IMG/VR virus record: IMGVR_UViG_3300031873_001030
Length of the DNA: 64,000 nt
From: a virus
Lineage: Duplodnaviria > Heunggongvirae > Uroviricota > Caudoviricetes
Reading direction: 5' to 3' (one strand)
Position numbers and translations under genes: made by a program. Within the stretch, counting starts at the first letter, position 1. The number at the start of each line of letters is the position of its first letter. Of the stretch, positions 698 through 34,739 are shown in pieces. The notes under the pieces were generated by a model that was not told the DNA's origin, did no database searches, and saw only the letters and a list, made by a program, of their open reading frames with translations.

Positions 698-715
698 CAT
701 TAACATATGTTAATG
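698..715. repeat. 18-bp perfect palindrome CATTAACATATGTTAATG (core TTAACATATGTTAA at 700-713)
   Basis: Read directly; 5 nt after the stop of 372..695 and 25 nt before ATG 739. Confidence 0.95.
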
Positions 716-987: not shown

Positions 988-1001
988 TTAACATATGTTA
1001 A
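988..1001. repeat. TTAACATATGTTAA palindrome
   Basis: Read directly; 13 nt after stop 975 and 38 nt before ATG 1040. Confidence 0.95.
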
Positions 1002-1206: not shown

Positions 1207-1578
1207 ATGGGAATGTATAGTTCTACTGATTGGTGTGAATTGAAAGTGAAAAGGGGAAAGGAAATAGAATTTTTTGATTGGCTTAAGAGGAATGAAGATT
1301 GGAAAGAAGCGATAGAAGTATTGAATGGCGAAGTAGAGATACAAGTCAGTTGGAAGATTATAAGTTATTGGTATGACAGCTTCCTTGACGAACTTGAACA
1401 GCTTGCTGAATATATTACAGGAAAATGGATATTGCTTTATGAGACAGGAGAAAGCAAAGCCATAATAACATTTACAGAAGATGACGAAGTGAAGATAGAA
1501 GTTGGGGAAATGGATTATCACAAAATTGATATAGATGATTTGAGAAAGGAAAATATGAAAATGGAAAGGAGTGATTAA
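1207..1578 (+). CDS. hypothetical acidic protein
   Basis: ORF track; stop codon TAA lies inside palindrome 1575-1588. Confidence 0.55.
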   Translation: MGMYSSTDWCELKVKRGKEIEFFDWLKRNEDWKEAIEVLNGEVEIQVSWKIISYWYDSFLDELEQLAEYITGKWILLYETGESKAIITFTEDDEVKIEVGEMDYHKIDIDDLRKENMKMERSD

Positions 1579-1626
1579 CATATGTTAAGAGAGTCGGCGG
1601 ACCCTGAGTTGCTTAACATATGTTAA
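1575..1626. repeat. pair of TTAACATATGTTAA palindromes (1575-1588, 1613-1626) enclosing a 24-bp GC-rich insert
   Basis: Read directly; insert gagagtcggcggaccctgagttgc is 16/24 G+C. Confidence 0.95.
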
Positions 1627-2094: not shown

Positions 2095-2313
2095 TATGCT
2101 GAAAGGAAGTCTTTATAGATATTTCTTTTGTAAGGAAAAGAAAGAAAAAGAATATAGGTGTCCAAAATGCGATTGTATTTTGGAGATAGAGATAAAATGT
2201 GGACCCAAGTGATATTGATGAATAAATTACACGTAGATATATTTGGTATGGATATGGATTTTGTTAAATGTAATTCTATAAAAAATTCTCAGACAAGCGC
2301 TTCTGAAGACAAC

Positions 2314-2504
2314 TTAACATATGTTAAGAATTCAGCAGTACCTGCAGCAAGCAACTCATTAACATATGTTAAGTATCTCCATCGAATCATCCTTGGCAAA
2401 CGCCAGACCCAGGAACACAAGTCTTTAACATATGTTAATGTAATCATTGGCCGCATTGCCTCAAACAAGAAAGAAAATCCCAGTCGCCCATTAACATATG
2501 TTAA
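2314..2504. repeat. four-copy TTAACATATGTTAA array (2314, 2359, 2425, 2491) with unique 31-, 52- and 52-bp spacers
   Basis: Read directly. It produces mirror-image artefact ORFs 2158..2559(+) and 2289..2564(-) with repeated LTYV(N/K). Confidence 0.95.
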
Positions 2505-2641
2505 TAAGTTGGTGCCAGCAATTGCTTGGCAACCAACAGCATACAAAGTGATATTATGAATCATATTCCTTTCATATGAAGCAGATATGTGGAAAATATT
2601 TGATACAATAATAGAAGGGAGAAAAAATGAGTTAAAAAGAG

Positions 2642-3440: not shown

Positions 3441-4010
3441 ATGAAGACAATAGAAGTAGAAATAAAAGGTCCTATTTTGCTGATGCATAATCCGAAGTCT
3501 ATGCTAGACCCACAGACTACTGGAACGAAATCATCAACTGCGAAATATGACTATAATGTCGAAGCAGAGAAGTCTGCTTACAAGACGAAAAAAAATGAAT
3601 TATATATTCCTGCCCAAGCTATGTTCAGTTCCACATTGAATGGAGCTTCTTTCAAGAAAGTAGGAAAATATACTGCCAAGAGCATTATAGCTGGCAATAT
3701 GAGAATAGAGCCAGAAGAAATCCTGATTCTAGATAGCAAAGGGAAAGTCATGACAAAATATGAGATAGACTTGAGGACTGTGGTTATTGCTCAAGGTAAG
3801 AAAAGAAACCGAATAGTCAGGGCAAGAGCTATGGTAAAGGATTGGAGTGCTAGATTCAGAATAGTCTATAACGACCAATTCATAGGCGACCCTGCTATAA
3901 TAGAAGATTGCTTGAAGGATGCAGGTTCAAGGATAGGTCTGTTGGAATACAGACCACAGACAAGTGGAAGCTACGGAACATTTGAGATAGTGAAATTCAA
4001 GGTGATATAA
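3441..4010 (+). CDS. hypothetical protein, translationally coupled to the ParB-like gene
   Basis: ORF track; AAGGTGA upstream; stop abuts ATG 4011. Confidence 0.65.
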   Translation: MKTIEVEIKGPILLMHNPKSMLDPQTTGTKSSTAKYDYNVEAEKSAYKTKKNELYIPAQAMFSSTLNGASFKKVGKYTAKSIIAGNMRIEPEEILILDSKGKVMTKYEIDLRTVVIAQGKKRNRIVRARAMVKDWSARFRIVYNDQFIGDPAIIEDCLKDAGSRIGLLEYRPQTSGSYGTFEIVKFKVI

Positions 4011-4895
4011 ATGGCACTATGGGATAGGGAAGAAAGAAAGCATACGGAAAATAAAGTATTGCCACTCAAGGATATAGTATTTGATGAGAACATATATCCA
4101 AGACAAAGTTCATGGTGGCAAACTTCGTATAAATATGCCGAAGAGATGAAAGCAGGCGCAAGGTTTCCTCCAATCACAGTAGGTTTTGTGAATGGAAGAT
4201 ACGTGCTTGTGGATGGGAAGCATAGGAATGACGCACTTCTGATGAATAAGGAGACACATACATCAGTAGTAGTTCTCTATGGTTACACTTTGGATGAACT
4301 CTATATTGAAGCTGTAAAACTCAATAGGGCTCACGGTGTAGGACTTACTTCTTTCGACAAGGTCAAGATAATCAAGAGACTTGAAGATATGAAATATTCA
4401 TTGGGAGACATAGCCACGATAGTCCAGATTCCTTTGGGAAGCATAGAGAAATTTGTAGCACAGAGGATTACGTTAAATCCATTAGGACAAGTCACAGTAT
4501 TGAAATCTCCTCTCAAGTTTATGGCAGGAGGAACTATAACGATGACTGACGAAGAGCAAGATACTCTAAGTGTGAGGAGTGAGATAAGTCTGGTAAATCA
4601 GATGACACAGATATTCTCAAATCCGAAGATGCTAAGGGTTGATATAACATTCGTTGATGCTATCGAGAAGCTTTACCAACTGATTCAAGATTTCCTCAAA
4701 GAACAGAAAATTTTGAATGGAGCTGGAAATACAATAGAAGAAGTTCCAAAAGAGAAAATATACAAGAAAAGAGGAAGACCTAAGAAAATCAAGACTGAAA
4801 GTGAGACTTCAGAACCAAAGAAAAAGGGAAGACCTAAAGGTTCTAAGAACAAGCTTAAAGAACTTGATGTCAGTAACGTCAAAGAACAAGCATAA
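4011..4895 (+). CDS. ParB/Srx-fold (ParB-like nuclease domain) protein with two C-terminal AT-hooks
   Basis: N-terminal LPLKDIVFDENIYPR ... RFPPITV ... YVLVDGKHR matches the ParB N-domain pattern (DGxHR). C-terminal KKRGRPKK and KKKGRPKGSK are AT-hook cores. Confidence 0.7.
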   Translation: MALWDREERKHTENKVLPLKDIVFDENIYPRQSSWWQTSYKYAEEMKAGARFPPITVGFVNGRYVLVDGKHRNDALLMNKETHTSVVVLYGYTLDELYIEAVKLNRAHGVGLTSFDKVKIIKRLEDMKYSLGDIATIVQIPLGSIEKFVAQRITLNPLGQVTVLKSPLKFMAGGTITMTDEEQDTLSVRSEISLVNQMTQIFSNPKMLRVDITFVDAIEKLYQLIQDFLKEQKILNGAGNTIEEVPKEKIYKKRGRPKKIKTESETSEPKKKGRPKGSKNKLKELDVSNVKEQA

Positions 4896-4944
4896 ATAGT
4901 TAATCAGTTAGACTTTATTTGGAAAGAATGAAGCAGGGTTTAGT

Positions 4945-5015
4945 GACAACGAACCTCAGAGATAGAACTTACTGATTCTTAGAATCAGTTGGTTCTTACT
5001 GCGAGGTTCGTTGTC
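4945..5015 (+). repeat. 71-nt imperfect-hairpin element, copy 1 (candidate structured RNA or DNA cruciform site)
   Basis: Outer 13-bp stem GACAACGAACCTC/GAGGTTCGTTGTC, inner stems AGAAC/GTTCT and ACTGATTCT/AGAATCAGT; 50 nt after the ParB-like stop. Confidence 0.8.
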
Positions 5016-5431
5016 ATAGTTCCTTCCCTCTTCATACTTTCTTTAATATTAGGGAATTTATAAAAACTGTAGGTTTTTATTATGAGATAAGGTTCGGTTG
5101 GGTCAGTTGGGGTGGGTTCCGTTCCGATATGGTATGGTAAGATTATATTTATTGGACGTGGTAGGATAGGGTAGGATGCGATATGGTATTGTTACTTGTT
5201 CCGATATGGTTCGGTGATTTGGGGTTAGGTTAGGTCTGTTCCGATAGGGCAAGGTATGGTATTTTATTTATTCGATACGGTTCGGTTTGGTGGGTTTGGG
5301 TTAGGCAAGATAAGATAGGGTTAGACAAGGTATCTTACTTTTGTATCCGATTGGGTAAGGTCTGGTAGTATTCGGTCCGTTGTGGTTAGGCACGATATGG
5401 TGTGGTAAGGTTTGACATTTATAGTCAGTCA

Positions 5432-5491
5432 TTAACATATGATAAAGAGTTGGACCCAGTGCACGGGTGGCATTCCATTAACATATGTTAA
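5432..5491. repeat. palindrome pair (5432-5445 TTAACATATGATAA with 1 mismatch; 5478-5491 perfect) enclosing a 32-bp GC-rich insert
   Basis: Read directly; insert agagttggacccagtgcacgggtggcattcca is 19/32 G+C. Confidence 0.9.
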
Positions 5492-5525
5492 TGAGAAAAG
5501 ATAAGAAATAATGTAAAATGATAAT

Positions 5526-5798
5526 ATGAAGAAGATAAAGGAAGAATTTTGCTTTCGCAGGAATGATACTAGAACTTCATATGATATGCAGAAAGGCTAT
5601 CTGATATATGGCAAGATTGATGACATTTATAATATCATCACTTACAATCTATTTGAGATGTGGAATACTACAAAGTGTTTTAAAAGGTTTAGGAAATTGT
5701 TCGTCACTACTTCAAATCACGAATGGATACATTATCTTGTTCCAGATATAAAAGATGGAAGTCTGATGAAGAAGATTGAAAATTGGTTTAACTGGTAA
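5526..5798 (+). CDS. hypothetical protein embedded in the GGTNN tract
   Basis: ORF track; bracketed by a 42-bp perfect direct repeat that contains the palindrome. Confidence 0.45.
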   Translation: MKKIKEEFCFRRNDTRTSYDMQKGYLIYGKIDDIYNIITYNLFEMWNTTKCFKRFRKLFVTTSNHEWIHYLVPDIKDGSLMKKIENWFNW

Positions 5799-5822
5799 AA
5801 TGTATCGTTAACCAAAATTCCA

Positions 5823-5836
5823 TTAACATATGTTAA
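5823..5836. repeat. TTAACATATGTTAA palindrome (within the 42-bp direct repeat 5817-5858 = 5472-5513)
   Basis: Read directly. Confidence 0.95.
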
Positions 5837-5881
5837 TGAGAAAAGATAAGAAATAATGAAAATCAAAAAGAGGTAAAAAAA

Positions 5882-5989
5882 ATGAGATACTATTGCCGAG
5901 AACATAAGGAAAGTTTTGAGACTACTGTCTGCTTTCTTCAACATGTTCTTAAGGAACACCATAGCATATTTGACATCACAAGTGAATAG
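5882..5989 (+). CDS. 35-aa Cys/His-containing peptide
   Basis: ATG 5882 lies 45 nt after the palindrome; translation MRYYCREHKESFETTVCFLQHVLKEHHSIFDITSE; below the track cutoff. Confidence 0.3.
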   Translation: MRYYCREHKESFETTVCFLQHVLKEHHSIFDITSE

Positions 5990-6151
5990 ATATTTATGTG
6001 ATGAGGTGGGGTCAAGTCAGGTCGGTTCTGGTTGCGATACTGACCTTATCACACCAAACCTCACCTTACCAGGGTTCGATAAGTTGTGATTTGGTAGGAT
6101 AGGGTAAAGTTATTTATATTTGAAACACGTAATTATATGTCAAGGAAGTCT

Positions 6152-6223
6152 GACAACAAACCTCAGAGTTGGAACTTTCTGGTTCTAAAAAATCACTTAG
6201 TTCTTTCTGCGAGGTTTGTTGTC
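6152..6223 (+). repeat. imperfect-hairpin element, copy 2
   Basis: Outer stem GACAACAAACCTC/GAGGTTTGTTGTC. Confidence 0.8.
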
Positions 6224-6949
6224 TTTGTATCGACTTTATCATTCGGTCAGGTAAGGCGGGTTCAGGTGGGGTATAGTTTCGGTTCGGTATGGTAGTTTGA
6301 CATTTATACGATACGGTAAGGTGAGGTTTGGAAGATAGTCTTTATGATTCGGTAAGGTGGGGTCAGTTGCGATTGTGTGAGGTTTGATTTGGTTTGGTCT
6401 GATTTGGTAGTTTGAGGCAAGGTAAAGTTAATTCCTTTTATATGATAAGGTATGGTCTAATTCGGTCTGGTTTGGTTGGATGGGCTACGTTCCGATAAGG
6501 TTCGGTATGGTAATATGACACTTATACGATTAGGTTCGGTCAGGTAAGGTTGGGTCAAATGCGATTAGGTAAGATGAGGTTCGGTCAGATACGGCAAGAT
6601 ATGGTATAATATTTATTCGGTTAGGTGAGGTCAGTTTAGGTCTGGTCTGATGTAGTTTGGCATGGTAGTATAACACTTATCGGTTTGGTTCGGTATGATG
6701 CGATATGGTCAGATTCGGTTTGATATGGTAGTATGACACTTATTGGTCAGGTTTAGTAGAATATGGTAAGGTTCGGTTCGATACGGTGGGATATGGTCAG
6801 TTAGGATTTGGAAAAGGAGAGAATAGTTTCAAGAAAGAATCAGCCCTTGGGTGAGTCCCTTGAAATGAAAAATGCCGCACCAGAGATGGTGATATTAGGT
6901 AAACTAATATAAATCAAGGTTCGAACCGTCCGTTAGGCAACGGTTCTCT

Positions 6950-7020
6950 GACAACAAACCTCAGAGTTAGAACTTACTGGTTCTTGAAATCAGTTGGTTC
7001 TTTCTGCGAGGTTTGTTGTC
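6950..7020 (+). repeat. imperfect-hairpin element, copy 3
   Basis: Outer stem GACAACAAACCTC/GAGGTTTGTTGTC; preceded by hairpin GAACCGT..ACGGTTC (6923-6946). Confidence 0.8.
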
Positions 7021-7201
7021 TTCCTCCAAAAAATTACTTATTCGATAGGGTAAGGATAGGTATGCTATGTCAGGGTCAGGTTTGGTTAGGTTTGATATGG
7101 TATGGTAAGGTAATTTAATACTTTTGCTTTGGTGCAATATGGTAATATTCGGTAGGGTATAATTCGGTGGGTTCCGTTAAGGTATGGTAAGGATTATATT
7201 T

Positions 7202-7321
7202 ATGAAATACGTATATAGGAATAGAGATGATGAAAGGGAACTTAAATTTGAAGTTCCAGATAGTATGTCAATAGCTGAAGCATTTGAATTTGCAGAAAGG
7301 AAATGCGCCAGCATGGAGTGA
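7202..7321 (+). CDS. 39-aa hypothetical peptide inside the GGTNN tract
   Basis: Only non-repetitive, protein-like composition in this part of the tract (MKYVYRNRDDERELKFEVPDSMSIAEAFEFAERKCASME); weak. Confidence 0.3.
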   Translation: MKYVYRNRDDERELKFEVPDSMSIAEAFEFAERKCASME

Positions 7322-7672
7322 TTATAATTTTTGGTCTGGTAGGGTGCGATTAGGTACGATTGGGTTTGGTCAGATAGGATATGATATGGACTATTGTAAT
7401 TTTCGGTTAGGTGCGGTTAGGTCTGGTTTGGTGCGTTCGAGGTGTGGTCAGATAGGATATGGAACTTTCATTCGTACTTTTCGGTAGGGCATTATTCGGT
7501 CCGATATGGTCTGGTCAATTCCGCTCTGGTTCGGTTAGATAGTGTATGGTGATATATGTTAAGTCGTGGTTTGGTTCGGTCTGGTAGAATGAGGTTTATC
7601 TTTTTTGATAGGCTATCGTTCGGTCTGGTGAGGTATGGTTCGGTAGGGTTCGGCAAGGTTTAATCCTTTTAG

Positions 7673-7787
7673 GAAAGGGTCTTTGATTCATTCCCTTTCT
7701 ATAAAAGATTTATCCCACGTCTTCGGGATTTATCCCTTCTTTCAGAAGGGATTTATATATCACCGAATCTCGTTTTAAACGAGATTC
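7673..7787 (+). promoter_or_regulatory. cluster of four hairpins (7673-7699; 7707-7758 double ATCCC/GGGAT unit; 7765-7787 GAATCTCGTTT/AAACGAGATTC)
   Basis: Inverted repeats read directly. The GATTTATCCC-N6-8-GGGATTTAT unit recurs at 25703 and 43483. Confidence 0.6.
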
Positions 7788-7963
7788 ACAAAGAACTTGT
7801 GGTCGGGTCTGATACGGCAAGGTGTGATACGGTAAGATAAGATTGGGTTATGGTCTGGCAAGGAACTTTTTACTTATATGGTTTGGCACGGTCCATTCCG
7901 TTGCGTTTAGGTGTGGTAAGGCTTGGTATGGTTACGATTTATTTGGCGTAACATATGTAATAC

Positions 7964-11186: not shown

Positions 11187-12039
11187 AGTCACATTTGCAG
11201 TCTGCGCATACAATGAGGAAAAGATTATCGCAGAATGTCTGAGACACATAAAGAACGTCGATTATCCTAACAAGGAGATAATAGTCGGAAGCGATGGGAC
11301 TGACAGGACAACTGAGATAGCACAAAATATTGGTGGTGTGGAAGTCATATCATCTGGAGAGAGGCTTGGAAAGACTCAGATGCTGATGAAGATAATAGAG
11401 CAAGCCAAAGGAGATATAATAATCATAAATGATGCTGAATTTTTCCTATTTCCAAATGACGCTGTCTACAAGATTGTAGAAAGTTTTGAGAACGAAAGGA
11501 TAGGAGGATTGTCATTTGGCTCTTCAGCTCCTCATGAGATTGACTTCACAAATTGGTGGGGACTCGTGGAACACGTGATACAGGACATATTCAGATATCA
11601 TAGGATGAAAAAGAACCCACTCACGTCATTGAAAGATGCTAATTTTATCATCGTAGCAAATGCTTTCAGAAAGGATATCATAACAAAGCTTGAGACGATA
11701 AATGATGATGCTGAGATAGGATATCAATTACTGTCTAAAAATCATTATCTGCTATATGTCCCTTCAGTCAGTTTCTATACACCTGGAGGTTCTGCAAAGA
11801 ACATAAAGGATAATATAAACCAGAGGTCAAGGACTGCAGTAGGATGGATACAGATAGGAAAGTTGTATAAGATAAACTTCTTGAGATTCTATATAATCTC
11901 TTTCTGGATGATTGTCAAACTGATATTCAGCCTGATAATCTGGACTGGAGTATTCATATTCAGCTACCTGAAAGGAAGATTCCTCTACATCATAGGCAGA
12001 AGGTCTTCAAAGCAAGTATGGACAAAGGTAAGAAGATGA
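11167..12039 (+). CDS. family-2 glycosyltransferase with C-terminal membrane helices
   Basis: VTFAVCAYNEEKII...YPNKEIIVGSDGTDRT and IIINDAEF (DxD-like) match the GT2 pattern. Confidence 0.8.
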   Translation: MINVLPKVTFAVCAYNEEKIIAECLRHIKNVDYPNKEIIVGSDGTDRTTEIAQNIGGVEVISSGERLGKTQMLMKIIEQAKGDIIIINDAEFFLFPNDAVYKIVESFENERIGGLSFGSSAPHEIDFTNWWGLVEHVIQDIFRYHRMKKNPLTSLKDANFIIVANAFRKDIITKLETINDDAEIGYQLLSKNHYLLYVPSVSFYTPGGSAKNIKDNINQRSRTAVGWIQIGKLYKINFLRFYIISFWMIVKLIFSLIIWTGVFIFSYLKGRFLYIIGRRSSKQVWTKVRR

Positions 12040-12374
12040 GAAAAAAATTCAATTATGAAAACTATTACAAGAAATATTATGAAAGTCATAAGGATAAGCA
12101 CTTGTATTATGTCAATGAATGGAAGAAGAAGCATAAAGATAGTGTAAGAATTTATTCCAAACGTTATTCCAAAAGTTGGAGATTGAGAAACAAAGAAAGA
12201 TTGAAGAAAACTTCAAAAAGATATTATGACAGGCATATCAGAAGTTCTTGGTTCGATAGGATATTTGGTTTCAAATGCAAAGTATGCGGCAAGAGATATA
12301 AAGATAAAAAGGCTTTGGGTGGGCATACCACATATTGTAAAAGAAAAAGGATTGAACTTATTAACATATGTTAA
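12018..12374 (+). CDS. basic Tyr/Lys-rich protein with C-terminal CxxC...HxxxC zinc finger
   Basis: ORF track; stop codon inside palindrome 12361-12374. Confidence 0.5.
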   Translation: MDKGKKMRKKFNYENYYKKYYESHKDKHLYYVNEWKKKHKDSVRIYSKRYSKSWRLRNKERLKKTSKRYYDRHIRSSWFDRIFGFKCKVCGKRYKDKKALGGHTTYCKRKRIELINIC

Positions 12375-12411
12375 AAAGATTGCATGCAGATAACTTCTTA
12401 ACATATGTTAA
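12361..12411. repeat. palindrome pair (12361-12374, 12398-12411) enclosing a 23-bp insert
   Basis: Read directly; insert aaagattgcatgcagataacttc. Confidence 0.95.
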
Positions 12412-16499: not shown

Positions 16500-16775
16500 T
16501 AAACCACAGATTACCAGACCATACCCGAACCTATAAGACCACATCACACCTGAGCGAAAAGTGTTAACCATACCACATCAGACTTTATCATGCCTTACCA
16601 GTCCTTAACATATCGTAACTTACCACAACGTAGCATAAATGACAATCCATATCTTACCACACACCAACATATCTTACCAAAACCCACCCTAACCCATCTA
16701 ACCCAATCATAAATATAATCCCTATCTTACCAAATCCCATCACAACGGACCCTACCAAATCAGACCCCGTTAAAT
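16500..16775 (-). repeat. GGTNN pentanucleotide tract on the minus strand (NNACC on +)
   Basis: 5-nt reading ttacc agacc atacc ... accaa aaccc accct aaccc; lies downstream (sense) of minus-strand gene 16869..17171. Confidence 0.8.
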
Positions 16776-16803
16776 AATTATAAGTTTCCCTTTAAAGAAA
16801 CAT

Positions 16804-16826
16804 GGAAGAGGACTTGTTCCTCTTCC
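16804..16826 (-). terminator. hairpin GGAAGAGGA-cttgt-TCCTCTTCC, 43 nt downstream of the 16869..17171 stop
   Basis: 9-bp perfect stem read directly, followed on the minus strand by a T-rich stretch. Confidence 0.5.
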
Positions 16827-16868
16827 CAACCAAATAATACCTTCTTGCCCTCTAAGTCAGTTACTTCT

Positions 16869-17171
16869 TTATCGAATAAAAACGTCGAAAGCTTTTGCCT
16901 TTCGTCCGCTTTTAGTTGAAACTAGACCCTTGAAGACAATTTTCAGTTCCTGACCAATTTTCACTGAACCCATCTGTCTCTCTAAAATCATAGAACCAAA
17001 GACAGTTCTGACTTTTCCAGTGTTGTCTTTGATGTCGTAGACTCTGGACTTACTTCCATCTGGCCTGAAGTAATTTCCATCTCGAATTTGCATGAGAGTT
17101 CCTTCCAGTGAGTCGTCTTCATTTTCGAATCTGAATATTTCTCCACTTGTAGATTGCCAATTTCCTGGCAT
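16869..17171 (-). CDS. hypothetical beta-rich protein (possible OB-like fold; speculative)
   Basis: ORF track; first gene of the minus-strand block. Confidence 0.55.
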   Translation of the reverse strand: MPGNWQSTSGEIFRFENEDDSLEGTLMQIRDGNYFRPDGSKSRVYDIKDNTGKVRTVFGSMILERQMGSVKIGQELKIVFKGLVSTKSGRKAKAFDVFIR

Positions 17172-17742: not shown

Positions 17743-18933
17743 ATGACGTTGAAGAATCTTGTAACGCCATTGGAACTTAAGACTCTCTGGGATTCTGAAT
17801 ATTACAAATCAATATTGACAGCTACAGCTAGCAGCTGCCAATTTGGAAGGATAAGAGAACACCAACGTAATAATACATTCAAAGAAATCAGAGCCAATCT
17901 GAATGCTCTGATAGTTGGAGAATATGGAATTGGGAAATCCACAATGTTGGACATTAAGAATGTCCCAATAGTCAGGGCTAATACAGTTTCAGTTGCTGGA
18001 CTAGCTGGAACTACGACAAGAAGTGGGGAACACGTTATTGGAGCTGCATATAAAGCTAATAATAAATTACTAATTATAGATGACGTTGGTAGTGGTGAAA
18101 ATTCTTATATAGATAATTCTGTAAAACGATGCATGAATCTGCTATTGGAACCTCCGCATACTTTTTCACGAATGTTAGGATTTAAGATGAACATTCCTGT
18201 GAAAGAGAAGAAGGGTGGAGCTTGGGTGAAAGGAAGTGAGAATCAGTTTACATTGCGTTCTAAGTTCAGTTGCATCGTAGCTACAACATCAGTTGTAATT
18301 CGAAATACTGATGACAAAGCTTGGATGTCAAGATTCGTACCAGTAAAACTACATGGTAGTGTGGATTACATGTTTGAATTTTTATCTGGTTCTAATCCAT
18401 TTACAATTACTGGTTTGAATCGGAAAGTCAAGTTATTTGAATTTCCAGATTATCTGGAATTCTTGGAATTCTATGAAGAACATTTTCGTGGAAGTCTGTG
18501 GGAGAAAAGCATAATAGAAAAGGAAGATGAAGTCGGTTCTATAGCGAGAAATACTGGTGACTTGGTAAGATTGGCTGCTTTCAATTGCGCTGTCGATGAT
18601 AGAATAAATATAGAATTTGAAGATGCCAAGAAAGTTTTTGATAGGTTCTACAATCAGATATGGTTCAATATCCAAGTTGGACCACTGACTCATGAACAAT
18701 ATAGAGTTCTATTACTTCTCAATAAGAAGTTGACTGAAGATGAGATAGCAGAAACTATACAAAGGTCACAGCCTTACGTATCTAAGATGATAGAGAAATT
18801 TGAAAGTAAGGGAATACTTGTAGACAGAAAAGTTGCGAAAGAAGTTGAAAACTTTAAACAAACTTCATGGGAAAAACTCGAACCACAGCAGACTTTATCA
18901 GAATCTGTAAAGTTAGATGGTAGTCATGAGTGA
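17743..18933 (+). CDS. MCM-like AAA+ ATPase with C-terminal winged helix-turn-helix
   Basis: Walker A VGEYGIGKST, Walker B LLIIDDVG, sensor-1-like CIVATTS, Arg-finger-like MSRF (MCM SRFD), and C-terminal LTEDEIAETIQRSQPYVSKMIEKFESKGIL. Confidence 0.65.
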   Translation: MTLKNLVTPLELKTLWDSEYYKSILTATASSCQFGRIREHQRNNTFKEIRANLNALIVGEYGIGKSTMLDIKNVPIVRANTVSVAGLAGTTTRSGEHVIGAAYKANNKLLIIDDVGSGENSYIDNSVKRCMNLLLEPPHTFSRMLGFKMNIPVKEKKGGAWVKGSENQFTLRSKFSCIVATTSVVIRNTDDKAWMSRFVPVKLHGSVDYMFEFLSGSNPFTITGLNRKVKLFEFPDYLEFLEFYEEHFRGSLWEKSIIEKEDEVGSIARNTGDLVRLAAFNCAVDDRINIEFEDAKKVFDRFYNQIWFNIQVGPLTHEQYRVLLLLNKKLTEDEIAETIQRSQPYVSKMIEKFESKGILVDRKVAKEVENFKQTSWEKLEPQQTLSESVKLDGSHE

Positions 18934-21728: not shown

Positions 21729-22961
21729 TTGGAGATGAAAGTGATGAACATAGGTGAAGTTGAAATTGGAAAACCTTGGCAATATAAGGAAAATTCTATT
21801 GGAATTGTTGTTCCACTTTTAAGGAAGAATCAAGTCAAAAGAAATTATAAGACAGTTGAGGAAGTTAAGGAGATGATGAATATCAAGGATACTGGAAATA
21901 TAGACAGTGTTGAAATTTCCTCAAAAGTCAATGAACCAGTTTTTATCAGGAGCGGGACGATGTTTGAAGGGGTTGGAACTCAGAGCAGGACGCCAACAAC
22001 TAGCATTGTCATAATTCCAAATCAACAGCCTATGAAAGTTCCTGTAAAATGCATACATGCTTCTCATCACATATCTTCTGGAAGCAACTTTAAAGTCGCA
22101 GGTAGTATTCCCCACTATATTGGTTATGCAGCTTTTGGACCAAGGGCTAGTCAATCTCGTGTGTGGTCTTCTGTAAGCATGCAAGCAAGTTCTGTAAGCC
22201 ATCATGCTATGCATCTTTCTGACAATCTTATCGATAACGTAAGAAAAATAGAAACTTTTAAGAAAGATATTGGCGAAGCAGTTAAAAACTATCCGATATT
22301 GAAAAATCAAGTTGGTATAGTTGTTCTTGATTTTAACGGGGTTGTTGGTCTTGAGATGTTTGATAATTCTGAATCTTGGGCAGCAGTATGTAAAGACATA
22401 ATCAATAAGTATTCTGACACAATAACACAGCTTGTTGACAGTCCTTTATTTTCATTGAATGAAGAAAGCATAAAACCAAAGATATTGGAATTCTTGAAGA
22501 AGCTGACAGAAGCAAAAGAAGAGATTATCTTTCAAGCAGATGTGATGAAAACAATCTTATTGGAAAATGGAGATATCATTGGAGAATGTACGAGTATTGA
22601 TGGCAGGATGATACATCTCATGGGAATGAAAAAGAAGGATGAGGAAAGGACATATGGTTCAGTTGCTCCAAATAATTTACCATTTACACCACAAAATTGG
22701 ACAACCAGAGGTTCTAACTATTCTGTGCTATCTGCACTTGGAGATGGAAGTAGGAGATTTTCAGAAATAGAGAAAACAACTAAATTATCCCCAGCTACAG
22801 TAAGCAAAAATTTAAGCAAGTTCCATTCTCTTGGATTTATTGACAAGTCAGCAGAAATAATAAACAACAAGGCCCGTGAAGTTTATAGCCTTACAAGCAA
22901 CGGTAAAAATGCATTTTTTACTATGCATGATGTCAGGAAGAAATTGATGAAGCTTGGATAA
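21729..22961 (+). CDS. uncharacterised N-domain fused to a C-terminal wHTH (ArsR/TrmB-like)
   Basis: C-terminal YSVLSALGDGSRRFSEIEKTTKLSPATVSKNLSKFHSLGFI. Confidence 0.6.
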   Translation: MEMKVMNIGEVEIGKPWQYKENSIGIVVPLLRKNQVKRNYKTVEEVKEMMNIKDTGNIDSVEISSKVNEPVFIRSGTMFEGVGTQSRTPTTSIVIIPNQQPMKVPVKCIHASHHISSGSNFKVAGSIPHYIGYAAFGPRASQSRVWSSVSMQASSVSHHAMHLSDNLIDNVRKIETFKKDIGEAVKNYPILKNQVGIVVLDFNGVVGLEMFDNSESWAAVCKDIINKYSDTITQLVDSPLFSLNEESIKPKILEFLKKLTEAKEEIIFQADVMKTILLENGDIIGECTSIDGRMIHLMGMKKKDEERTYGSVAPNNLPFTPQNWTTRGSNYSVLSALGDGSRRFSEIEKTTKLSPATVSKNLSKFHSLGFIDKSAEIINNKAREVYSLTSNGKNAFFTMHDVRKKLMKLG

Positions 22962-24415: not shown

Positions 24416-24479
24416 TTAACATATGTTAATCAGTGATGCAGCATAATGCAAAATTCCTTCAGTCTTTAACATATGTTAA
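24416..24479. repeat. palindrome pair (24416-24429, 24466-24479) enclosing a 36-bp insert
   Basis: Read directly; lies between the tRNA fragment and tRNA-Tyr. Confidence 0.95.
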
Positions 24480-24527
24480 TGTCAAATTAGAAATGCAATA
24501 CGATTGTTAACAAGAAAGTTAACAAAG

Positions 24528-24677: not shown

Positions 24678-24751
24678 GGAGAATAGAGGGATTTGAACCC
24701 TCTCTAACAAGTTCACAGCTTGACGTGCTCGCCTACTACACCATATTCTCC
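24678..24751 (-). tRNA. tRNA-His (GTG) with genomically encoded G-1
   Basis: G-GAGAATA...TATTCTC-C, D stem GTGT/GCAC, anticodon loop CTGTGAA, T arm GAGGG-TTCAAAT-CCCTC. Confidence 0.8.
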
Positions 24752-25212
24752 ATTTTATTATGTTCTTCTCTATGGCAATTTGCACATAGAAGTTTGCATT
24801 TCTGCAATTCTTTTCGTATCACCTCGAGACTATTATGCCATATTCTGGATATTTCATATTTCTTTTCTCCGTTCATATGATGAAATTCAAGTGCTGCGAA
24901 ACATTTGTTATATCCACATTTTTGACATTTACCTCCAAATTCCATTTTCATAATTTTTGTTTTTTCTTGGTTTTTACGCTTTTGTGCTATATACCACAAA
25001 TGTCTCTGAGGGAGAGATGATTTTTGTTTATGTTGTTTTATATATTTTCTCATATATTCTCTATGATATTTTTTCCTTTTTTCTCTGTTTTCAGGGTTTG
25101 ACAACCAAATTTTCCATCGTTCTTTTTCTTGCTCACGGTGTGATTTTCTATATAATCTATTTATTTCACACAATCGTTCTTTGTTTTTTTCATAATATTT
25201 TTTACTGGTCAT
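24736..25212 (-). CDS. HNH endonuclease with N-terminal basic Tyr/Lys-rich region, inserted in the tRNA cluster
   Basis: CQKCGY...LEFHH...N...CANCHREEH; its 3' end overlaps tRNA-His by 16 nt. Confidence 0.8.
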   Translation of the reverse strand: MTSKKYYEKNKERLCEINRLYRKSHREQEKERWKIWLSNPENREKRKKYHREYMRKYIKQHKQKSSLPQRHLWYIAQKRKNQEKTKIMKMEFGGKCQKCGYNKCFAALEFHHMNGEKKYEISRIWHNSLEVIRKELQKCKLLCANCHREEHNKMENMV

Positions 25213-33905: not shown

Positions 33906-34622
33906 ATGATAGAAGATGAAATTATAAGCGGGAGAATTTCTATTGGTCGGGTTGGTATTTATCTTAATGCTAAGACTAAAGGTGGTTACAATATAGGATT
34001 TAATTTTCTTAATAGTCCAGAGCTGAGGACTGCGGGCGTGTGCAATATCACGAAGGACCAGATGTTTATAATGTTTGCTGATTTTGACAATATAGGTTAT
34101 GAAAAACTTAAAGACCAGTTGGATTTCATAAATAGGAATCATGATGTGAGCAATTTTCTTGTTCTTACGACTGGAAAGAATCGATATCATGTGATAAGTT
34201 TTGAAAAATTCTGGAAACAGGAATTAGTTGACATATTGAAGAATACTTTCTGCGATTATACGTATAAAAGTTTTGTTCCGTTGAAAGTTGACAAGGGCTG
34301 GATACTTAGGGTGACTGAAAAGAGGGATTTGGATAATAATGTTGTGAAGGACAGGCCTGAATATGTAGAATCGTTTTCTTATTCTGAAGTCCCTAAGAGG
34401 AGATTGTCGCGTGCTCACGTAGAATTTTTTTCGAGAATGTATCCTGAATTCAGGAAATTTGCAGAGGAGAAGCTTGATAAAAATTATTGGGATGAGTTTA
34501 CTGTGATTCAGCTGCTGAAATATGGGACAAGCCATGAGAATCTTATTGCAAAATTTGACTTGAAGGATTTGATAGATTCCAAGAAGCTTGAAATAGTGTG
34601 GAAGGACAATATATTTGATTAG
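33906..34622 (+). CDS. archaeo-eukaryotic primase (AEP)/PrimPol-like replication protein (tentative)
   Basis: FIMFADFDNI (hhhDxD) and LTTGKNRYHVISF (sGxxxH) occur in the order and spacing of AEP motifs I and II; motif III is unclear. Confidence 0.5.
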   Translation: MIEDEIISGRISIGRVGIYLNAKTKGGYNIGFNFLNSPELRTAGVCNITKDQMFIMFADFDNIGYEKLKDQLDFINRNHDVSNFLVLTTGKNRYHVISFEKFWKQELVDILKNTFCDYTYKSFVPLKVDKGWILRVTEKRDLDNNVVKDRPEYVESFSYSEVPKRRLSRAHVEFFSRMYPEFRKFAEEKLDKNYWDEFTVIQLLKYGTSHENLIAKFDLKDLIDSKKLEIVWKDNIFD

Positions 34623-34623
34623 T

Positions 34624-34694
34624 GACAATGAACCTCAGAGTAGGAACCAACTGGAAAGTGGAATCAGCAAGTCATAACTGCGAGGTTCATTGTC
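34624..34694 (+). repeat. imperfect-hairpin element, copy 4
   Basis: Outer stem GACAATGAACCTC/GAGGTTCATTGTC; starts 2 nt after the stop of 33906..34622. Confidence 0.75.
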
Positions 34695-34739
34695 AGGCTT
34701 TTATTGTACAAAAACGAAGATTAATATTGAGGACCTTTT

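What the first reader, a model, noticed from the sequence alone, without database searches (positions are those of the whole stretch)
2314..2504. Four-repeat palindrome array with long GC-rich unique spacers: repeat-spacer architecture that is not CRISPR
Four palindrome copies are separated by unique spacers of 31, 52 and 52 bp (2328-2358, 2373-2424, 2439-2490). The 52-bp spacer 2373-2424 is 26/52 G+C in a visibly AT-rich background. The spacers share no obvious similarity apart from a GACCCAG-like word (2410-2416), which also occurs in the inserts at 1589-1612 and 5446-5477. The only ORFs here are mirror-image artefacts (repeated LTYVN on both strands). Two equal 52-bp spacers next to short fixed repeats suggest measured insertion. 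The array could be operator sites, empty or minimal cassettes of a recombination system, or a small-RNA array processed at the palindromes.
Basis: partly seen in the sequence, partly recalled or inferred. Interest (0 to 1): 0.65.

Follow-up and report, generated by a model that had tools for sequence, protein, structure and literature searches.

The report
Clustered palindromic protein-binding sites, not CRISPR
The four "repeats" are the densest cluster of a 14-base perfect palindrome found at gene boundaries across this uncultured virus-like genome; it is most likely the docking site of a dimeric DNA-binding regulator, an ordinary kind of feature in a new genome lineage.

Summary
TTAACATATGTTAA occurs exactly at 2314, 2359, 2425 and 2491, with unrelated spacers of 31, 52 and 52 bp. 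The array is not a separate object: the window has 14 exact copies (0.9 expected), as singles, pairs and this one quadruple, all between small genes. Relatives at about 88% protein identity carry the same palindrome. One relative at 75% carries TTATCATATGATAA plus seven hybrid copies whose two half-sites differ. Five other relatives have none. Independently varying half-sites, unstructured spacers and single copies point to recognition by a dimeric DNA-binding protein. They argue against a hairpin, a small-RNA array or CRISPR. The binding protein is not identified, and the neighbouring ParB-like protein does not co-vary with the sites. Spacers match nothing and are replaced between relatives even where a pair is conserved in position. 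No recombinase was found, and no spacer occurs twice. Repeats containing the palindrome flank a gene, and one strain-level synteny breakpoint falls inside a palindrome. The sites are therefore also crossover points for module shuffling, as with T4 PeSL cassettes. Unexplained: the G+C-rich spacers, and the array staying open in one frame on both strands. Verdict: new member of a known kind; modest interest.

The parts
2314..2327 (.). Palindrome copy 1 of the array (TTAACATATGTTAA)
   Evidence: Exact match; sequence.
2328..2358 (.). Spacer 1, 31 nt, 48% G+C
   Evidence: No similarity to other spacers, no matches elsewhere, and folding z = -0.03 / -0.54.
2359..2372 (.). Palindrome copy 2
   Evidence: Exact match.
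2373..2424 (.). Spacer 2, 52 nt, 50% G+C, C-rich on the + strand; contains GACCCAG at 2406-2412
   Evidence: folding z = -0.7 to -0.8.
2425..2438 (.). Palindrome copy 3 (extended to the 18-nt form with flank TG)
   Evidence: Exact match; flanks.
2439..2490 (.). Spacer 3, 52 nt, 46% G+C; unrelated to spacer 2
   Evidence: folding z = +0.95 to +1.2.
2491..2504 (.). Palindrome copy 4 (flank CA gives the 18-nt form)
   Evidence: Exact match.
2167..2559 (+). Orphan ORF (130 aa) that reads through all four palindromes as LTYV(K/N). The N-terminal third looks coding; the array part does not.
   Evidence: ORF. It was called as a gene on contig L132. Its only homologue among 5.8 billion proteins is itself. 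Codon score is +0.19 for 2167-2313 and -0.19 for 2314-2559.
2289..2564 (-). Antisense ORF (91 aa) open through the array; orphan
   Evidence: ORF; no homologue; no Pfam hit. Its codon score of +0.08 reflects the C-rich + strand.
700..713 (.). Single copy, 4 nt after the stop of ORF 372-695 and 25 nt before the ATG at 739
988..1001 (.). Single copy between ORF 739-975 and the ATG at 1040
1575..1626 (.). Pair (1575-1588 and 1613-1626) with a 24-nt, 67% G+C spacer. The first copy supplies the stop codon of ORF 1207-1578. The orthologous gene in relative L177 also ends at a copy.
5432..5491 (.). Pair with a 32-nt spacer. The first copy is the hybrid TTAACATATGATAA. An orthologous pair in L161 has an unrelated 22-nt spacer.
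5472..5517 (+). 46-nt composite cassette (palindrome plus TGAGAAAAGATAAGAAATAATG), first of two direct repeats flanking ORF 5526-5798
   Evidence: family D16, 98% identical. The same arm occurs in L161, L177 and L179, and inverted at 24416.
5817..5862 (+). Second copy of the 46-nt cassette (palindrome at 5823-5836), upstream of ORF 5882-5989
12361..12411 (.). Pair with a 23-nt spacer. The first copy holds the stop codon of the C2H2 zinc-finger ORF 12018-12374. The second lies just before the methyltransferase ORF.
24416..24479 (.). Pair with a 36-nt spacer beside the minus-strand tRNA cluster. The left arm is the cassette arm in inverted orientation.

Best explanation
The array is the densest cluster of a genome-wide set of recognition sites for one sequence-specific, dimeric DNA-binding protein. 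The site is TTAWCAT|ATGWTAA, with each monomer reading one 7-bp half. The protein is probably encoded by the element but has not been identified; a host protein is possible. The sites sit at cistron boundaries in the small-gene region, usually within about 0-25 nt of the upstream stop codon and 17-45 nt before the next start codon. Some carry a fixed, directional A-rich arm (TGAGAAAAGATAAG...) that points towards the downstream gene. The protein would therefore act as a global regulator of these small transcription units. It could act as a repressor or roadblock, as mycobacteriophage stoperators and plasmid KorA/KorB operators do, or as an activator placed just upstream of promoter elements. 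Four sites within 191 bp would give the strongest, cooperative occupancy. The spacers are linker DNA whose sequence is not constrained. As a passive by-product, the identical 14-mers are the only homology shared between neighbouring modules. They therefore serve as crossover points for gain, loss and exchange of small genes and of 'spacer plus palindrome' units, as T4 PeSL cassettes do. Shown here: enrichment, intergenic placement, conservation of the sites against diverged flanks, independent half-site variation, lack of spacer structure, and breakpoints at the sites. Inferred: that a protein binds, which protein it is, and the direction of the regulation.
For: (1) There are 14 exact copies against 0.9 expected, with nothing in between except one 1-mismatch copy. 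CATATG itself is not unusual elsewhere: 22 occurrences outside the palindromes against about 21 expected. (2) Outside the array, copies lie between ORFs or supply their stop codon. The only ORFs that contain copies are two orphans at the array. (3) The sites are conserved while their surroundings are not. Relatives L142/L179, L161, L138 and L176/L177 keep the identical 14-mer at 72-75% nucleotide identity in shared genes. This includes orthologous positions: the end of the gene 1207-1578, and the pair after the conserved 40-nt element at 5350-5389. The spacers of those pairs are unrelated. (4) Relative L156 has TTATCATATGATAA 7 times and hybrid copies (TTAAC...GATAA or TTATC...GTTAA) 7 times. 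With T-type half-sites at 21/28, independent assortment predicts 7.9 / 5.3 / 0.9, and the observed counts are 7 / 7 / 0. So the two halves vary independently. That fits two protein monomers and does not fit base-pairing. (5) The flanks beyond the 14 bp are not conserved, apart from a weak extension of the dyad. (6) Spacers do not fold better than shuffles (combined z = -0.6). (7) The directional arm points with the downstream gene on both strands. (8) The palindrome is lineage-specific: five relatives of similar distance lack any enriched palindrome. This fits an accessory regulator with its regulon.
Against: No binding protein is identified. The ParB-like protein next door (4011-4895) is conserved, including its helix-turn-helix region, in relatives with the other palindrome type or with none. 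No classical repressor fold was found among about 75 ORFs scanned. Fourteen perfectly identical copies with almost no degenerate ones is unusual for a regulon and looks more like recent spread. Spacing between paired sites shows no helical phasing (36-82 bp centre to centre). The model does not explain why the spacers are G+C-rich. It also does not explain why the array keeps one frame open on both strands (p about 0.02 given in-frame spacing, about 0.001 including the spacing).
Confidence: 0.55

Rival explanations
1. The palindromes are primarily recombination junctions. They would be crossover sites of a module-shuffling system, PeSL-like or integron-like. The array would then be a row of emptied or minimal cassettes.
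For: ORF 5526-5798 is flanked by 46-nt direct repeats that contain the palindrome. In L179 a non-coding unit is flanked by repeats of about 50 nt that contain it. Between strains L176 and L177, 99.6% identical downstream, homology starts inside a degenerate palindrome: TTAATATATGTTAA against GAAACATATGTTAA. A pair-containing 153-nt segment is present or absent among 99%-identical strains. The array position is hypervariable: 4 copies in the window, 2 in L179, 0 in L161. Palindromes have no orientation, so crossovers could also invert segments. That would fit the array spacers being C-rich against the genome's G-rich coding-strand bias.
Against: No tyrosine or serine recombinase or transposase was found in the window. 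No spacer or cassette was seen at two places. The 153-nt indel ends 62 nt to the left and 11 nt to the right of the palindromes, not at them. Recombination between two copies deletes everything between them, so it does not produce short unique spacers. Fourteen bp of identity is enough for passive homologous or microhomology crossovers without any dedicated system.
Confidence: 0.17
2. The element works at the RNA level. In polycistronic transcripts two nearby copies would pair into a 14-16-bp stem around the spacer loop. The stem would serve as a processing, stability or termination signal, or would release small RNAs.
For: Every pair folds into such a hairpin with z = -3.5 to -6.9, and the array folds with z = -4.8 (+) and -4.0 (-). 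Copies lie between cistrons. In two pairs the outer flanks extend the stem.
Against: The fold scores follow automatically from repeating a palindrome. Half of the copies are singles, which can form only a 5-bp A/U stem. Hybrid half-sites in L156 and at 5432 break the pairing and are not compensated. Spacers have no structure of their own. Rfam gives no hit. There is no T-run after the stems.
Confidence: 0.1
3. The sites are centromere-like or replication-related: dispersed partition sites bound by the adjacent ParB-like protein, or origin boxes.
For: A ParB-like protein with a helix-turn-helix and two AT-hooks is encoded at 4011-4895. Eleven of the 15 copies lie within 3.5 kb of it. Dispersed palindromic parS or operator sites are known for ParB-family proteins; KorB is an example (PMC11790492).
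Against: The ParB-like protein and its DNA-binding region are conserved in relatives that have the variant palindrome or none. What co-occurs with the protein in all relatives is the (GGTNN)n block downstream, not the palindrome. There is no skew inflection at the array, and the array is far from the MCM-like gene at 17743.
Confidence: 0.08
4. The array is part of a real protein-coding gene, and the repeats are kept as an LTYV(K/N) peptide motif. The gene would be 2167-2559 on the + strand or 2289-2564 on the - strand.
For: The three distances are all multiples of 3 and both strands are open, which is unlikely by chance. There is a Shine-Dalgarno-like sequence before 2167 and the N-terminal part looks coding. 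In L156, variant palindromes lie in frame inside called ORFs.
Against: Eleven other copies are non-coding or only supply a stop codon. The 14 nt are identical at the DNA level with no synonymous variation. Both ORFs lack any homologue or domain. Codon usage of the array part in the + frame is non-coding-like. Across the family only 5 of 11 pair distances are multiples of 3.
Confidence: 0.05
5. The array is a CRISPR-like or mini-CRISPR array.
For: The layout superficially resembles repeat-spacer. Spacers are unique, and they differ between relatives.
Against: The repeat is 14 bp (18 at most). Spacers are unequal. Copies occur singly all over the genome. No Cas-type domain was found other than one spurious weak hit in the XPF nuclease. 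Spacers match nothing.
Confidence: 0.01

Closest known systems
Stoperators of cluster A mycobacteriophages (L5, D29): 13-bp repressor sites dispersed through the genome (own knowledge: Brown et al. 1997; described in PMC12266134)
   Same: These are many near-identical short sites spread over the genome. They sit in short intergenic gaps, often touching stop or start codons. They are lineage-specific, and some are associated with promoters.
   Different: Stoperators are asymmetric and oriented with transcription, and their binding protein (gp71) is known. Here the site is a perfect dyad, has no orientation, and has no identified binder.
Cluster O mycobacteriophage palindromic repeats, 5'-TGTTCGGNNNCCGAACA (PMC4351075)
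   Same: This is a conserved 17-bp palindrome repeated many times at intergenic positions of a phage genome. Its function is unproven and is assumed to be protein binding.
   Different: It has a 3-nt non-conserved centre. No arrays with G+C-rich spacers have been described for it, and the host is bacterial.
KorA (OA, TGTTTAGCTAAACA) and KorB (OB, TTTAGCGGCTAAA) operators of plasmid RK2 (PMC11790492)
   Same: These are 13-14-bp perfect palindromes dispersed over a mobile element. They are bound by dimeric global regulators, one of which belongs to the ParB family. A ParB-like gene lies next to most of the copies here.
   Different: Here the ParB-like protein does not co-vary or co-occur with the palindrome. 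No CTPase motif was examined.
PeSL regulatory cassettes of T4-type phages (PMC2839356; PMC4122927)
   Same: These are repeated regulatory cassettes between small non-essential genes in hypervariable regions. Recombination between them shuffles, deletes and inserts modules. Here, direct repeats of a palindrome-containing cassette flank an ORF, and one strain breakpoint lies inside a palindrome.
   Different: PeSLs are a sigma-70 promoter plus a terminator hairpin of defined polarity. Here the invariant core is a 14-bp dyad, promoter activity is not shown, and mini-circles have not been observed.

Membership tests
CRISPR array | Direct repeats of about 23-50 nt | tested here: not met
   The conserved core is 14 nt, and at most 18 nt in some copies.
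CRISPR array | Spacers of nearly uniform length; repeats confined to arrays | tested here: not met
   Array spacers are 31/52/52 nt and spacers of other pairs are 23-36 nt. Three copies in the window are singles at gene boundaries.
CRISPR array | Cas genes nearby, or repeats identical to a host array | tested here: inconclusive
   No Cas family was found among about 75 ORFs scanned with Pfam or PHROGs. The host is unknown, so host repeats could not be compared.
Dispersed operator / stoperator-type binding sites | Short conserved site, strongly over-represented and placed in non-coding DNA | tested here: met
   There are 14 exact copies against 0.9 expected.
Dispersed operator / stoperator-type binding sites | Site under selection while the flanks diverge; half-sites behave as independent units | tested here: met
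   The 14-mer is identical in relatives with 72-75% nucleotide identity in shared genes and unrelated flanks or spacers. L156 has 7 symmetric and 7 hybrid copies.
Dispersed operator / stoperator-type binding sites | A cognate DNA-binding protein that binds the site and changes transcription | not testable with these tools
   No candidate co-varies with the site. Possible DNA binders in the window are the C2H2 zinc-finger ORF 12018-12374, the Zn-ribbon ORF 2642-2854 and the winged-helix protein 21729-22961.
ParB-parS / KorB-OB system | Sites co-occur and co-vary with the ParB-family protein | tested here: not met
   The ParB-like protein is present with a near-identical helix-turn-helix region in relatives carrying the other palindrome type (L156) or none (L153, L159, L163, L165, L167).
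Integron attC / gene-cassette array | Adjacent site-specific (tyrosine) recombinase | tested here: not met
   None was found in the 64-kb window. The remaining 28 kb of the 92-kb contig was not seen.
Integron attC / gene-cassette array | Imperfect 57-141-nt recombination sites; the same cassette found at different positions | tested here: not met
   The sites are perfect 14-bp dyads. No spacer or cassette recurs in the window or in relatives.
PeSL-type mobile regulatory cassettes | Repeated intergenic cassettes at the borders of indels or replacements between close relatives | tested here: inconclusive
   One breakpoint lies inside a degenerate palindrome (L176 against L177). Two modules are flanked by direct repeats that contain the palindrome. 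The 153-nt strain indel does not end at the palindromes.
PeSL-type mobile regulatory cassettes | Promoter plus terminator activity; mini-circles | not testable with these tools
   The consensus scan shows no promoter or terminator excess (38 against 30.7 and 5 against 2.6). The host's promoter type is unknown.
REP / BIME / MITE-type mobile palindromic elements | Copies share the whole element, inner sequence included; an associated transposase | tested here: not met
   Only the 14-bp core is shared, plus one arm in some copies, and the inner sequences are all different. No transposase or RAYT was found.
Structured non-coding RNA | Match to a known family, or a conserved structure with compensatory changes | tested here: not met
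   Rfam gives no relevant hit. Spacers are unstructured. Hybrid half-sites are uncompensated.

The most novel reading that the evidence does not exclude
The palindromes are the substrate of a dedicated, still unrecognised palindrome-specific recombination or insertion machinery in a probably archaeal virus lineage. That machinery would capture short G+C-rich DNA segments and small genes between copies, with possible inversion. It would build non-CRISPR repeat-spacer arrays that stay open for translation. The G+C-rich, stop-free spacers and the strain-level gain and loss of 'palindrome-spacer-palindrome' units would be its footprints.
Probability: 0.07. Interest if true: 0.8.

Novelty: new member of a known kind. 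Interest (0 to 1): 0.35.

Why it matters
If the reading is right, the 14-mer defines the regulon of an unknown global regulator in an uncultured element lineage with archaeal-type replication and repair genes, for which nothing is known about gene control. The symmetric A-to-T switch at half-site position 4 between sister lineages gives a clean handle for finding the binding protein by co-variation. The same sites mark where small genes are swapped between strains. They could therefore help explain how the hypervariable small-gene region evolves. None of this changes current concepts: dispersed palindromic operators and cassette shuffling are well known in phages and plasmids.

Tried and rejected
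- **DNA similarity to known phages.** The first 8 kb and the array region gave nothing.
- **IMG/VR scans.** The paired pattern gave no hit. The bare 14-mer gave only single chance hits. The 18-mer gave 8 unrelated contigs. The ParB-like protein found no relatives there, and the 189-aa protein found only 31-35% relatives without the palindrome.
- **Paired-pattern scans of metagenomes and GTDB genomes.** Most hits (L133-L137, L139-L141, L143-L152) are unrelated local duplications or operator-like pairs in other organisms, including CPR bacteria and one Pacearchaeota contig. They are not relatives.
- **Spacer origin.** No spacer matches the window, any relative or the phage database.
- **Duplication origin of the two 52-mers.** Rejected.
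- **Structure in the spacers.** Rejected.
- **Promoter reading.** No consistent -35/-10 or TATA geometry relative to the palindrome. The scan shows no enrichment.
- **Restriction-site avoidance or selection of CATATG.** Not seen.
- **ParB-like protein as binder.** Rejected on co-variation.
- **HNH endonuclease 24736-25212 as binder.** It has a homologue only in L156 among the loci held. Coverage of the other genomes is too partial to use this.
- **Strain variants of the window's own array.** Only one other contig exists (L132), and it is 100% identical.
- **Literature.** The 14-mer is not in the paper library.

Full report
**Observation.** The spacers are 31, 52 and 52 nt. The 14-mer is a perfect dyad. 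The window holds 14 exact copies and one with a single mismatch (5432, TTAACATATGATAA). Dinucleotide shuffles give 0.9 matches at up to 2 mismatches. The copies come in three forms:
- singles at 700, 988 and 5823;
- pairs at 1575/1613, 5432/5478, 12361/12398 and 24416/24466;
- the one quadruple.

Eleven of the 15 lie in the first 6 kb. This region is packed with small + strand ORFs preceded by GGTG-type Shine-Dalgarno sequences. The array is therefore one cluster of a dispersed family, not a self-contained object.

The spacers are unrelated to each other. They are clearly richer in G+C than the genome: 48.8% against 35.9%, z = 4.2. The shared word is real but short. GACCCAG lies at 2406-2412, not 2410-2416.

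**What the element is.** The window matches no deposited phage. It encodes the following:
- an ERCC4/XPF nuclease with a helix-hairpin-helix domain;
- a weak MCM-like P-loop protein with a winged helix;
- an ARPP-1 protein with a winged helix;
- a C2H2 zinc-finger protein;
- HNH and GIY-YIG nucleases;
- several methyl- and glycosyl-transferases;
- a 3752-aa DUF285 protein;
- four tRNAs.

No capsid or terminase family was recognised. I treat it as an uncultured virus-like or plasmid-like element, probably archaeal. That assignment is an inference from the gene set.

**Relatives.** A paired-palindrome scan of metagenomes found two true relatives, L138 and L142. Homologues of the 189-aa protein 3441-4010 then led to a graded series of contigs.
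- L142/L179, L176-L178 and L180 (88% protein identity), L161 (87%) and L138 carry the identical 14-mer.
- L156 (75%) carries TTATCATATGATAA seven times and seven hybrid copies with one half-site of each type. It also has six copies with a CAGATG/CATCTG centre that lie in frame inside ORFs.
- L153, L159, L163, L165 and L167 (58-76%) have no enriched palindrome of any kind.

So the palindrome is a lineage-specific accessory feature with a symmetric A-to-T switch at half-site position 4.

**Protein site rather than hairpin.** A symmetric switch alone fits either base-pairing or a dimeric protein. The hybrids decide between them. In L156 the three classes occur 7 / 7 / 0. Independent assortment of half-sites at 75% T-type predicts 7.9 / 5.3 / 0.9 (my arithmetic). 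A stem would select against hybrids. Other points agree:
- Many copies are single and could form only a 5-bp A/U stem.
- Spacers fold no better than shuffles.
- Rfam finds nothing.
- The strong z-scores of pairs and of the array follow automatically from repeating a palindrome.

Flanks beyond the 14 bp are not conserved, apart from a weak extension of the dyad. The exception is one recurrent, directional arm, TGAGAAAAGATAAG.... It follows the palindrome at 5478 and 5823 and in L161, L177 and L179. It occurs inverted at 24416, next to minus-strand genes. This looks like a composite regulatory cassette with the palindrome as its invariant core.

**Placement.** Copies sit between cistrons, usually 0-25 nt after the upstream stop codon. 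Three supply the stop themselves, because TAA is in two frames at each end of the palindrome. The next start codon follows 17-45 nt later. Sites are kept at orthologous places while everything around them changes:
- The gene 1207-1578 ends at a copy in the window and in L177, at 72% gene identity.
- The pair after the conserved 40-nt element 5350-5389 is present in the window and in L161, but with unrelated spacers of 32 and 22 nt.

The arrangement of sites is therefore under selection and the spacer sequence is not.

**Who binds?** This is not resolved. The obvious candidate is the ParB-like protein with a helix-turn-helix and two AT-hooks at 4011-4895. It is conserved, DNA-binding region included, in relatives with the other palindrome type or with none. 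What accompanies it everywhere is the (GGTNN)n block downstream. About 75 ORFs were scanned without finding a classical repressor or any recombinase.

**Dynamics.** L178 and L179 carry a segment of about 153 nt that is absent from L176, L177 and L180, with 99%-identical flanks. The segment comprises 62 nt of ORF tail, a palindrome, 50 nt, a second palindrome and 11 nt. The boundaries are not at the palindromes, so this event is an ordinary deletion or replacement.

Other observations do tie rearrangements to the palindromes:
- Between L176 and L177, homology begins inside a degenerate copy.
- ORF 5526-5798 in the window is bracketed by 46-nt direct repeats containing the palindrome.
- A non-coding unit in L179 is bracketed by repeats of about 50 nt containing the palindrome.
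- The position of the array is hypervariable: four copies here, two in L179 and none in L161.

This matches the behaviour of PeSL cassettes in T4-type phages (PMC2839356). I read it as a passive consequence of identical 14-mers being the only shared homology between modules. No recombinase was found, and no spacer or cassette was seen in two places.

**Coding question.** The palindrome has one stop-free frame per strand. All three repeat distances are multiples of 3, and both strands stay open. That has p of about 0.02 given the spacing and about 0.001 including it. The + ORF has a ribosome-binding site and a coding-like first third. Codon usage of the array part is non-coding-like in the + frame and slightly positive in the antisense frame, which reflects the C-rich + strand. 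Both ORFs are orphans without domains. Across the family only 5 of 11 pair distances are multiples of 3. I consider translation of the array incidental at best, but the open frames and the G+C-rich spacers remain unexplained.

**Comparison with known systems.** The closest analogues are:
- mycobacteriophage stoperators (PMC12266134; own knowledge for the original description);
- the cluster O palindromes (PMC4351075);
- the KorA/KorB operators of RK2 (PMC11790492);
- PeSL cassettes, for the evolutionary side.

Membership of the CRISPR, integron attC, REP/MITE and ParB-parS families fails on defining features that were tested here. The feature is a new member of the known kind 'dispersed palindromic operator-like sites on a mobile genome'.

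**Verdict.** The best explanation is a cluster of binding sites for a dimeric regulator (confidence 0.55), with passive module shuffling at the sites. Interest is modest (0.35).

Noticed in passing
window 5040-5430 and 6000-7960 (+ strand); smaller inverted block 16501-17000; relatives L153 11251-15250, L156 11251-12750, L161 6501-7500, and others: About 2.4 kb of non-coding DNA with a strict 5-nt period. The in-register pentamer is G(92%) G(80%) T(98%) N N. There are about 35 GGT per 500 nt against about 4 in the background. Autocorrelation is 0.36, 0.32, 0.24 and 0.25 at lags 5, 10, 15 and 20. In every relative fetched, such a block starts right after the ParB-like gene. The conserved module of this group is therefore '189-aa protein + ParB-like protein + (GGTNN)n'. 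No known counterpart comes to mind. It could be a centromere-like or protein-coating array, or a source of repetitive RNA. It seems more unusual than the palindromes.
   Followed up: partly
window 5350-5389; L179 2257-2296; L161 6849-6879: A 40-nt piece of the GGT block (GGTCTGGTAGTATTCGGTCCGTTGTGGTTAG...) is 97.5% identical in L179 and 94% in L161, although shared genes are only about 75% identical at the DNA level. It lies just upstream of a palindrome pair in the window (43 nt) and in L161 (105 nt).
   Followed up: no
window 4944-5016, 6151-6223, 6949-7020, 34619-34695: Four copies (75-90% identical) of a near-perfect hairpin of about 75 nt (36-nt arms, GACAACRAACCTCAGAG...). Three of them punctuate the GGT block. 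Rfam gives only a spurious sub-threshold miRNA hit. No blastn match was found in the relatives held.
   Followed up: partly
window 431, 2229, 3103, 6125, 7962; L161 3425, 3828, 3908, 7360: The motif ACACGTA / ACGTGTA recurs, preceded by an AT-rich TATA-like box (for example L161 'ctataaatacgtgtataac', window 'ttatatttgaaacacgtaatta'). It lies 15-35 nt upstream of small ORFs or of a hairpin. These may be the real promoters, of archaeal type, and they are distinct from the palindromes.
   Followed up: no
L156 3501, 8900, 8945, 9086, 9673, 11322: In relative L156, six identical copies of a centre-variant palindrome (TTATCAGATGATAA, or its complement) lie in frame inside called ORFs. They encode LSDD(N/K) or LSSDK, including in the lysine-rich tail of the ParB-like protein and in an AT-hook protein. 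Identity at the DNA level across different genes suggests selection on the DNA rather than on the peptide.
   Followed up: partly
window 24505-24525: Two direct GTTAACA half-site-like words 12 nt apart lie between the palindrome pair 24416/24466 and the 3' end of tRNA-Tyr. Four tRNAs (Tyr, Pro, His, Asn) and an HNH endonuclease gene (24736-25212) lie on the minus strand here. An HNH homologue sits near a palindrome in L156.
   Followed up: no
loci L147, L151, L150, L141/L145, L137/L146: The same 14-mer occurs as operator-like pairs 25-28 bp apart in unrelated contigs, including Peregrinibacteria, Patescibacteria and Parcubacteria MAGs. L147 and L151 look like homologous upstream regions. TTAACATATGTTAA may be the operator of a regulator family in CPR bacteria.
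   Followed up: no
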